This document shows, piece after piece, positions 1 through 305 of a DNA stretch of 64,000 nt (position 1 is its first letter; every line of letters starts with the position of its first letter). The DNA is from the human T2T-CHM13v2.0 reference genome, Homo sapiens: positions 9,376,001 to 9,440,000 of the forward strand of contig CP068257.2 in NCBI GenBank assembly GCA_009914755.4, read 5' to 3'. The notes under the pieces are model-generated. The model ran no database searches, had not been told where the DNA came from, and saw nothing but the letters and a program-made list of their open reading frames with translations. The translations under genes and the position numbers were made by a program.

Positions 1-305
1 CTGGGGCTCTTGTCCTCCGCTGCAGTATGTTCATCTTGATCCTAGAAAAGAGGCTGCACAGGATGGGGATGAGATTTCACTTGCTCCGGGAGCGACGCGT
101 CTTCTCACGTGGGCCAGGCTTTCACACACCCAAAGCGGATCCGCCGCGGCAAAAATGATTGACAGCCGGCTTCATGACCCAGGCAGAGAAGCAGAAAGAG
201 GCTCGCCAAAGACAGGCCACCATGCGACAAACCACTTTGTGCCGCACAGGGCACATTCGGCCAAAGACACACATGCACACGGGCATACACACACAAATCC
301 ATAGA
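1..305. repeat. Strongly diverged (degenerate) copy of the 1.41-kb satellite monomer; left flank / edge of the homogenised array
   Basis: By-eye alignment of 1-305 to the homologous part of downstream monomers (e.g. 4380-4520) shows patchy similarity of about 65-70% (e.g. 'cagagaagcagaaagaggctcgccaa' vs 'cagaggagcaaagaggtttctgccaa'; 'gcacattcggcc' vs 'gcaacttcggct'; 'acaaatccatagagag' vs 'acaaacccacagagag'). From about 306 ('gggaaagaaacacacagagactgagaga') similarity to the canonical monomer jumps to >95%. Confidence 0.5.

What the first reader, a model, noticed from the sequence alone, without database searches (positions are those of the whole stretch)
1..305. Left edge of the array: degenerate monomer, with the junction inside the microsatellite
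Positions 1-305 align only patchily (about 65-70%) to the homologous part of the monomer. From about 306 onward identity to the canonical monomer is >95%. Satellite arrays typically have old, non-homogenised monomers at their edges, so the window probably captures the array boundary (or a boundary between an old and a young domain). The switch lies within the GA/CA-rich segment ('cacacacaaatccatagagagag|ggaaagaaacacacag').
Basis: partly seen in the sequence, partly recalled or inferred. Interest (0 to 1): 0.55.

Follow-up and report, generated by a model that had tools for sequence, protein, structure and literature searches.

The report
Edge of SST1/NBL2 macrosatellite array
The window opens inside the first unit of a known primate macrosatellite (SST1/NBL2); bases 1-292 are a piece of the older 2.4-kb repeat form that the later 1.4-kb copies lack, so this is an ordinary array edge, not a decayed monomer.

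Summary
The window holds 45 full tandem monomers plus a partial one, each about 1407 bp (not about 830 bp). They fit the short form (sf1/NBL2) of the primate SST1 macrosatellite.

A sharp discontinuity exists, but at 292/293, not 305/306. Bases 1-292 do not align to the homologous monomer tail: identity is 47-49%, and 143 of 300 dinucleotide shuffles score as well. They match nothing else in the monomer except CA-rich low complexity.

They are not unrelated DNA either. Metagenome contigs, two from samples labelled human gut, are 98-99% identical to the window's start. They extend 1-292 leftward into a 949-bp block, "B". In other contigs B sits between an SST1 tail and an SST1 head, and one contig reads B-A-B-A with a 2422-bp period. 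B is therefore the segment of the 2.4-kb long-form SST1 that is missing from the 1.4-kb form.

In the near-identical contigs, at least 5 kb of non-SST1 DNA lies left of B. The array is thus [B-A][A]n. The first A (293-1714) is unhomogenised, with 26 private differences against 0-4 in monomers 2-40.

An ORF across the B-to-A junction (159-413) matches Pfam FAM27.

The array-boundary reading holds. The degenerate-monomer reading does not. This is known biology of low interest.

The parts
1..292 (+). The last 292 bp of segment B, the roughly 950-1000 bp block present in long-form (2.4-kb) SST1 units and absent from the 1.4-kb short-form monomers. It is cut by the window edge; B continues about 657 bp further left in near-identical contigs.
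   Evidence: No above-chance alignment to the monomer. It is contiguous with L001rc 3774-4430 and L005rc. It is homologous to the block lying between an SST1 tail and head in L002, and to both B copies of the B-A-B-A contig L010, over B positions 1-949. Published chr4/19 SST1 reverse primers map into B with 3-5 mismatches.
262..298 (.). CA-rich low-complexity tract at the 3' end of B. It is the only part of 1-300 that gives any BLAST match to the monomers, through their own CA tract.
   Evidence: all hits fall in 262-298, E is at least 0.029 against the consensus, and identity is 75-89%.
293..310 (+). First bases shared with the short-form monomer (ACAAATCCATAGAGAGAG against monomer end ACAAACCCACAGAGAGTG). 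Seen from the undeleted side, this is the right-hand edge of the deletion that created the short form.
   Evidence: local alignment to the monomer junction starts at window 293, and at the equivalent point, L002rc 1898.
293..1714 (+). The A part of the first unit, an unhomogenised edge monomer of short-form type.
   Evidence: 94.2% identical to the consensus. It has 26 private differences and a best twin of 96.3%, against 0-4 private differences and twins of at least 99% for monomers 2-40. A patch at 570-1128 differs from the otherwise near-identical contigs L001 and L005.
159..413 (+). 84-codon ORF (TTG start by table 11) running across the B-to-A junction. It matches the Pfam family FAM27 (D and E). 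This shows homology only; no function is implied.
   Evidence: PF15832, 100.8 bits (cut-off 30.8), E 6e-29, profile positions 13-86 of 91. The equivalent ORF in L002 gives 85.4 bits.
105..728 (-). Mechanical ORF spanning the junction on the minus strand. It served only as a handle to retrieve related loci.
   Evidence: P0001 is 98% identical over the ATG-started 177 aa. The exact 177-aa product is found on contig L005.
1715..64000 (+). Homogenised short-form array: 44 further complete monomers and a partial one, built from locally duplicated blocks.
   Evidence: The type string is A|BCCDEFGHICDJJJ|BCCDEFGHIC|KLMLMKLM|NOPNOPN|QRSTU.

Best explanation
The window starts 657 bp inside the first repeat unit of an array of the primate macrosatellite SST1, short form (subfamily 1, also called NBL2). 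The species is most likely human.

The ancestral SST1 unit is about 2.4 kb and consists of a roughly 1-kb block B followed by a 1.4-kb block A. The short form is A alone. It arose when B was lost between the end of one A and the start of the next. It was then amplified and kept uniform by unequal exchange and gene conversion.

The leftmost unit of this array still has the undeleted B-A arrangement and abuts non-SST1 DNA. Window 1-292 is the end of B. At 293 the sequence re-enters what all later monomers share.

B has no partner inside the array. The first A lies at the edge, so it is not homogenised and has accumulated private changes.

Shown here:
- 1-292 does not align to the monomer.
- B is continuous into A, and other loci carry the regular B-A-B-A arrangement.
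- Related contigs carry non-SST1 DNA to the left of B.
- The first monomer has an excess of private differences.

Inferred:
- The polarity, deletion in the short form rather than insertion in the long form.
- The exchange mechanism that homogenises the array.
- That the window's own upstream sequence equals that of the 98-99% identical contigs.
For: Array anatomy:
- 46 phased starts with spacing 1404-1415 bp.
- Monomers are 94-98% identical to the consensus.

Fit to SST1 short form / NBL2:
- 1.4-kb unit, 61% G+C, 5.8% CpG.
- One NotI site per monomer, inside 317-bp windows holding 28 CpGs, as described for SST1 in PMC8582499.
- CA tracts of variable length, as described for NBL2 in PMC6009586.
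- One PRDM9 13-mer in the consensus, as stated for sf1 in PMC12657243.

Homologs elsewhere:
- The junction ORF finds 176 proteins. Nearly all come from ENA/JGI metagenome assemblies; five contigs were retrieved, three of them labelled human gut. One hit is an annotated Pan troglodytes protein.
- L001rc 4431-5556 matches window 1-1126 at 97.9%.
- L005rc matches window 1-1161 at 98.6%, with only 1 difference in window 1-569.

Identity of B:
- L002rc reads SST1 tail (78% to consensus positions 473-1382), then B, then SST1 head and a full short-form monomer at 96.7%.
- Four loci share the same B-to-head continuity in a multiple alignment.
- L010rc reads B(31-1047), A(1107-2405), B(2453-3404), A(3423-4803). 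The period is 2422 bp and B positions 1-949 are covered. This matches the 2.4-2.5-kb chr4/19 monomers of PMC3018141.
- The chr4/19 forward primers of that paper map to the A tail (window 1468-1490, 4-5 mismatches). Its reverse primers map to adjacent sites in B.
- PMC12657243 states that the chr13/14/21 consensuses share a large gap relative to chr4/17/19.

Boundary:
- L001rc 1-3773 and L007 1-1283 have no match to the monomer.
- G+C drops to 31-48% there.

Edge effect:
- The first monomer has 26 private differences.
Against: - The upstream sequence is read from contigs that are 98-99% identical to the window, not identical. They could be paralogous copies on another chromosome or another haplotype, and the window's own upstream could differ.
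- Low-coverage host-derived metagenome contigs can be chimeric. Three paralogous contigs leave the SST1 head at different points, two of them at CA tracts.
- No Dfam/Repbase SST1 consensus or reference genome was available. Family assignment therefore rests on properties, diverged primer matches, homologous contigs and the literature.
- The published reverse primers match the same strand as the forward primers. That fits only if the table lists them in sense orientation.
- The last five monomers of the window also carry 10-27 private differences. An excess of private differences is therefore not unique to the edge, although their twins may lie beyond the window.
Confidence: 0.87

Rival explanations
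1. One reading: 1-305 is an old, degenerate copy of the homologous last 300 bp of the monomer, decayed to 65-70% identity.
For: The first full monomer is indeed the most divergent in the window, and a few short CA-rich matches exist.
Against: Identity is 47-49%, equal to that of dinucleotide shuffles, and 143 of 300 shuffles reach the observed score. There is no significant local match on either strand. The same bases align at 80-89% to segment B of long-form units, which is a different part of the repeat.
Confidence: 0.02
2. 1-292 is unrelated single-copy flanking DNA, and the array begins abruptly at 293.
For: There is no alignment to the 1.4-kb monomer.
Against: The same sequence recurs next to SST1 heads in at least four diverged loci. 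It recurs as a regular block of a 2422-bp tandem unit. It also carries matches to published chr4/19 SST1 primers and part of a Pfam FAM27 ORF that runs into the SST1 head.
Confidence: 0.02
3. The position is not the outer edge of the SST1 region but an interruption. More SST1 array, or other SST1 units, lie further upstream beyond the 5 kb of non-SST1 DNA seen here.
For: PMC12657243 describes additional isolated long-form (sf2 'S' and 'L') monomers near the acrocentric arrays. PMC6009586 reports many dispersed copies. Only about 5 kb upstream could be inspected, and in related rather than identical contigs.
Against: No monomer match appears in 3.8 kb (L001) plus 1.3 kb (L007) upstream of B. 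Composition changes to 31-48% G+C. The first monomer shows the signature of an edge.
Confidence: 0.12
4. Reverse polarity: the 1.4-kb form is ancestral and B is an insertion acquired by the long form. The B at this array's edge then came from exchange with a long-form locus.
For: Nothing here dates the two forms directly. B begins almost exactly at the A/B boundary at this locus, as an inserted module might.
Against: - All short-form junctions in the window are identical in structure, as expected from one deletion event that was then amplified.
- The end of the short-form tail aligns both to the continuation of the long-form tail and to the end of B. That is the expected footprint of a deletion between short similar motifs.
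- The preprint 10.1101/2021.07.12.451456 places the chr19 (long-form) array as the ancestral human site.
- Diverged B copies at 80-89% show that B is old.
Confidence: 0.08

Closest known systems
SST1 subfamily 1 (NBL2) macrosatellite arrays on human acrocentric short arms (chr13/14/21), as described in PMC12657243, PMC6009586 and bioRxiv 10.1101/2021.07.12.451456
   Same: Unit of about 1.4 kb, about 61% G+C, CpG-rich with a NotI site, and variable CA tracts. The large segment present in chr4/17/19 units is absent. The consensus holds a PRDM9 13-mer. Close homologs occur in metagenome contigs, three of the five retrieved being labelled human gut, and in a chimpanzee annotation.
   Different: Nothing essential differs. 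Monomer types here differ by 4-7% from one another, with near-identical twins arranged in duplicated blocks. PMC12657243 quotes about 99% identity among sf1 monomers, and PMC6009586 quotes 90-99% for the chr21 copies. Chromosome and species could not be assigned with these tools.
Long-form SST1 (subfamily 2) 2.4-2.5-kb monomers of chr4q28.3 and chr19q13.12 (PMC3018141)
   Same: Window 1-292, plus the 657 bp upstream in L001, corresponds to the part of this unit that follows the A tail. The paper's forward primers map to the A tail and its reverse primers to B. Contig L010 shows a 2422-bp B-A period.
   Different: Only the first unit of this array has B, and the following 45 units lack it. B here is 80-89% identical to the B copies retrieved, so it is not a recent transfer from those loci.
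FAM27 D/E protein family (Pfam PF15832)
   Same: The ORF at 159-413 scores 100.8 bits against the family model, far above its 30.8-bit cut-off.
   Different: The ORF sits in a satellite repeat and runs from B into the GA/CA-rich head of A. It starts with TTG under the bacterial code used by the tool. Nothing here indicates that it is translated.
Non-homogenised edge monomers of satellite arrays (general model of concerted evolution by unequal exchange)
   Same: The first monomer has many private changes and no close twin, while interior monomers have near-identical twins.
   Different: The non-alignment of 1-292 comes from a structural difference (presence of B), not from accumulated point divergence.

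Membership tests
SST1 subfamily 1 / NBL2 macrosatellite | Tandem unit of about 1.4 kb | tested here: met
   46 anchored starts with spacing 1404-1415 bp. The consensus is 1407 bp.
SST1 subfamily 1 / NBL2 macrosatellite | G+C- and CpG-rich unit with a NotI site inside a 317-bp region of 27-28 CpGs (PMC8582499) | tested here: met
   G+C is 61.2%, with 81 CpG per 1407 bp. One NotI site lies at consensus position 602, and there are 40 in the window. 317-bp windows that include it hold 28 CpGs.
SST1 subfamily 1 / NBL2 macrosatellite | CA dinucleotide tract of variable length in each unit (PMC6009586) | tested here: met
   TRF finds (AC)15-18 or AGACACACACAC variants once per monomer in many units.
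SST1 subfamily 1 / NBL2 macrosatellite | Lacks the large internal segment present in the chr4/17/19 consensus (PMC12657243, Extended Data Fig. 7 legend) | tested here: met
   Segment B (949 bp) occurs once, at the left edge. Window 1-300 has no other copy in the remaining 63.7 kb. Long-form contigs L002 and L010 carry it between A units.
SST1 subfamily 1 / NBL2 macrosatellite | Consensus contains a PRDM9 13-mer CCNCCNTNNCCNC (PMC12657243) | tested here: met
   CCCCCGTCTCCAC lies at consensus position 299-300 (0-based start 299). There are 25 matches in the window, 0.39 per kb.
SST1 subfamily 1 / NBL2 macrosatellite | Sequence similarity to the curated SST1 consensus (Dfam/Repbase) or to GenBank NBL2 | not testable with these tools
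   No repeat library or primate genome is searchable here. The indirect evidence is as follows. The chr4/19 primers match at 15-17 of 20 bases at mutually consistent positions. Contigs from human-gut-labelled samples are 98-99% identical to the window. A chimpanzee protein annotated on a 104.7-Mb chromosome shares the repeat ORF.
SST1 subfamily 1 / NBL2 macrosatellite | Location on acrocentric short arms (chr13/14/21) within pseudo-homologous regions | not testable with these tools
   No chromosomal context is available.
   Identity is 47-49%. 143 of 300 dinucleotide shuffles reach the observed score. There is no local match beyond the CA tract.
Long-form SST1 unit (subfamily 2 type, B-A) | B lies directly upstream of the A head, with the same continuity as in tandem 2.4-kb units | tested here: met
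   A multiple alignment of four loci shows it. L010rc reads B-A-B-A with a period of 2422 bp.
FAM27 (Pfam PF15832) | Whole-protein score above Pfam's gathering cut-off | tested here: met
   The ORF at 159-413 scores 100.8 bits against a cut-off of 30.8, E 6e-29.
Bovine satellite I (1.715), considered because its unit is about 1.4 kb | Contains the published 1.715 primer sites (PMC10009442; the classical sexing-control primers were recalled from memory) | tested here: not met
   No site with 8 or fewer errors for the 30-32-mers. The best sites for the 20-mers have 6-7 errors.

The most novel reading that the evidence does not exclude
The retained B-A unit at the array edge could be more than a relic. 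B overlaps the amplicon that PMC3018141 designed across the CpG island of chr4/19 SST1 units and found expressed in all tissues tested. The T2T repeat preprint reports that longer, less diverged 'centromeric monomers' on chr9/13/14/21 are highly transcribed while the arrays are silent. The edge unit could therefore be the promoter-bearing entry point for transcription reading into the acrocentric array (for example the NBL2-derived lncRNA TNBL). It could also be the founder unit from which the short-form array arose in place, by a microhomology-mediated deletion. A side point: the curated 'protein family' FAM27 would then be an ORF of the SST1 B-to-A junction. The paper library searched here holds no paper containing both terms.
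Probability: 0.1. Interest if true: 0.4.

Novelty: already known. Interest (0 to 1): 0.15.

Why it matters
SST1 short-form arrays on chr13, 14 and 21 are the reported breakpoints of the common human Robertsonian translocations (PMC12657243). Their methylation is altered in cancers (PMC6009586, PMC8582499). Knowing that such an array begins with one undeleted long-form unit gives two practical things. It supplies a unique anchor (B plus its junction at 292/293) for mapping reads and orienting the array. It also shows the undeleted side of the deletion that made the short form.

Tried and rejected
- **Bovine satellite I (1.715).** Suggested by the 1.4-kb period. Rejected because the published primers have no sites in the consensus.
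- **Monomer of about 830 bp.** Rejected because anchored spacing is 1404-1415 bp.
- **Frame +2 ORF open across 1-302 as a coding flank.** No Pfam hit.
- **Rfam families in 1-3200.** None at gathering thresholds.
- **Alu in the upstream contig.** None. The upstream DNA was not identified further; it has no long ORFs and holds a 68-bp x3 tandem repeat.
- **NBL2-specific primers from PMC6009586, PMC6924650 and PMC8582499.** They are only in supplements or figures not held as text. The direct primer test used the chr4/19 primers of PMC3018141 instead.
- **Paralogous contigs L006, L008 and L009.** They leave the SST1 head at different points. I could not decide between real rearranged paralogs and metagenome assembly chimeras at CA tracts, so no conclusion rests on them.
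- **Species assignment.** Only indirect: contigs from human-gut-labelled metagenome samples are 98-99% identical to the window, and one exact 177-aa ORF match was found on a contig labelled only 'metagenome'.

Full report
**What the window is.** A 30-base anchor taken at position 311 recurs 46 times with spacings of 1404-1415 bp. The 45 complete monomers are 94.2-98.1% identical to a 1407-bp consensus. The repeat unit is therefore about 1.4 kb. The unit is 61% G+C with 81 CpGs. TRF shows only the internal CA-rich tract, whose length varies between monomers.

**Check of the observation.** I aligned 1-310 globally to the last 310 bases of the consensus. This gave 156 matches in 329 columns (47%) and a score of -55, against -64 +/- 7.9 for shuffled queries.

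For 1-292 alone, 143 of 300 dinucleotide-preserving shuffles reach the observed score.

BLAST of 1-300 against the doubled consensus and against the remaining 63.7 kb, on both strands, finds only CA-rich low-complexity matches within 262-298.

Local alignment puts the first base shared with the monomer at 293. There, 15 of 18 bases match the monomer's last 18 bases.

So a sharp discontinuity is real and lies beside the CA/GA tract. It is at 292/293, not 305/306. The 65-70% patchy alignment is not real. The first monomer is 94.2% identical to the consensus, not above 95%.

**Which repeat this is.** My first guess was bovine satellite I, which also has a unit of about 1.4 kb. It failed: published primers have no sites in the consensus.

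The properties instead fit the primate macrosatellite SST1 in its 1.4-kb form (NBL2, subfamily 1).
- It has a 1.4-kb unit with CA repeats of variable length (PMC6009586).
- It has a NotI site inside a 317-bp region of 27-28 CpGs (PMC8582499). Here one NotI site lies at consensus position 602, and the 317-bp windows that include it hold 28 CpGs.
- The consensus holds a PRDM9 13-mer (PMC12657243). Here it is CCCCCGTCTCCAC.

A protein search with the mechanical ORF that spans the junction (105-728, minus strand) returned 176 homologs. Nearly all come from ENA/JGI metagenome assemblies. I retrieved five of the underlying contigs, and three come from samples labelled human gut. One hit is an annotated Pan troglodytes protein on a 104.7-Mb chromosome. 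I could not compare with the Dfam/Repbase consensus or with a primate genome, so the family assignment is strong but indirect.

**What 1-292 is.** The best protein hit, P0001, lies on a 5556-bp contig from a human-gut-labelled sample (L001). Its reverse complement matches window 1-1126 at 97.9% and extends 4430 bp further left. The exact 177-aa product of the window lies on a second contig, L005. L005 matches window 1-1161 at 98.6%, with one difference in 1-569.

More distant hits carry the same sequence at lower identity. Their contigs show what it is.
- In L002 the order is SST1 tail (78% to consensus positions 473-1382), then a block of about 1 kb, then the SST1 head and a complete short-form monomer at 96.7%.
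- A multiple alignment of four loci shows the same uninterrupted passage from this block into the SST1 head. The short-form monomer junction departs from them exactly at ...CAC|ACAAAC....
- L010 reads B(31-1047), A(1107-2405), B(2453-3404), A(3423-4803). The period is 2422 bp, and both B copies cover positions 1-949 of the block assembled from L001rc 3774-4430 plus window 1-292.

That period matches the 2.4-2.5-kb chr4/19 SST1 monomers of PMC3018141. That paper's forward primers map to the A tail (window 1468-1490, 4-5 mismatches). Its two reverse primers map to adjacent sites in B with 3-5 mismatches. They match in sense orientation, which I take to be how the table lists them.

PMC12657243 states that the chr13/14/21 consensuses share a large gap relative to chr4/17/19. 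Block B is that gap, and window 1-292 is its last 292 bp.

**The boundary.** Homology between L001 and long-form units begins at L001rc 3774. That is within about 50-60 bases of where B begins in L002 and L010.

To the left, L001rc 1-3773 has no match to the monomer, and G+C is 31-48%. A scan of metagenome contigs for the 30-mer across this left edge found four contigs. One of them, L007, extends a further 1283 bp left, again without SST1.

In the closest available relatives of this locus, the SST1 region therefore begins with one nearly complete long-form unit B-A. It continues as A-only units: [B-A][A]n.

One caveat applies. These contigs are 98-99% identical to the window, not identical. 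They may be paralogous copies or other haplotypes.

**Edge effect.** The first A (293-1714) has 26 private differences and a best twin of only 96.3%. Monomers 2-40 have 0-4 private differences and twins of at least 99%, mostly 99.4-100%. The last five monomers also carry 10-27 private differences each. Their twins may lie beyond the right end of the window, so this is noted but not interpreted.

**Most likely history (inferred).** All short-form junctions in the window have the same structure. The end of the short-form tail aligns both to the continuation of the long-form tail (to L002rc 913) and to the end of B (from L002rc 1898).

This is what a single deletion of about 985-1000 bp between two short, imperfectly similar motifs would leave. 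Amplification of the A-A product would follow.

The long form is taken as ancestral for two reasons. The T2T repeat preprint places the chr19 long-form array as the ancestral human site. Diverged B copies at 80-89% identity show that B is old. I could not test outgroup primates.

**Other features.** The plus-strand ORF at 159-413 runs from B into the GA/CA-rich head of A. It matches Pfam FAM27 (D and E family) at 100.8 bits against a cut-off of 30.8, and the equivalent ORF in L002 also matches. This shows that the FAM27 family model describes an ORF of the SST1 B-to-A junction. It says nothing about translation. No paper in the searchable library contains both terms. Rfam finds nothing in 1-3200.

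**Verdict.** Novelty is 'already known' and interest is low. The useful correction is that the failure of 1-292 to align is structural, a retained long-form segment, and not the result of decay.

Noticed in passing
window 1715-41167: The array is built from locally duplicated blocks, not one uniform repeat. At 99% or higher identity the monomer types read A|BCCDEFGHICDJJJ|BCCDEFGHIC|KLMLMKLM|NOPNOPN|QRSTU. The 19.7-kb block 1715-21435 recurs at 21436-41167 at 98.6%, with its first ten monomers nearly identical. Adjacent monomers are mostly 93-96% alike (a few adjacent pairs are near-identical), while same-type monomers are at least 99% alike, mostly 99.4% or more.
   Followed up: partly
window 56664-63702: The last five complete monomers each carry 10-27 private differences and have no twin of 98% or higher in the window. 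This is either a second, less homogenised domain or types whose twins lie beyond the right end.
   Followed up: no
window 159-413 (+): The ORF across the B-to-A junction matches Pfam FAM27 (PF15832) at 100.8 bits, E 6e-29. The curated FAM27 D/E 'protein family' therefore appears to be an ORF of long-form SST1 repeats. No paper in the library holds both 'FAM27' and 'SST1'.
   Followed up: partly
window 570-1128: The window differs from both near-identical contigs L001 and L005 at 13 shared positions in this patch of the first monomer. In 1-569 it has a single difference from L005. This suggests a conversion patch or allelic/paralogous variation in the edge monomer.
   Followed up: no
L001 3265-3474 (about 1.5-1.7 kb left of the start of B in window orientation): A 68-bp unit repeated 3.1 times at 90% identity lies in the non-SST1 DNA upstream of the array. 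Its identity is unknown.
   Followed up: no
L006, L008, L009 (contigs 93-96% identical to L001 upstream plus B): Each leaves the SST1 sequence at a different point: the end of B, the CA tract of the head, and consensus position 595. Each continues into unrelated DNA. These are either rearranged paralogous copies with a solo partial SST1 unit or assembly chimeras at CA tracts.
   Followed up: partly
L010 (reverse complement) 31-4803: In this long-form B-A-B-A contig the two adjacent units differ strongly in similarity to the window's versions (B 79.6% against 88.6%; A 84.9% against 79.2%). This suggests a higher-order arrangement in that long-form array.
   Followed up: no
L002 (reverse complement) 1-3494: A second, diverged locus has the same layout at an array edge: an old SST1 tail (78% to the short-form consensus), then B (88% to the window's B), then short-form monomers at 96.7%. 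The B-then-short-form edge may therefore have been duplicated together with the array.
   Followed up: partly
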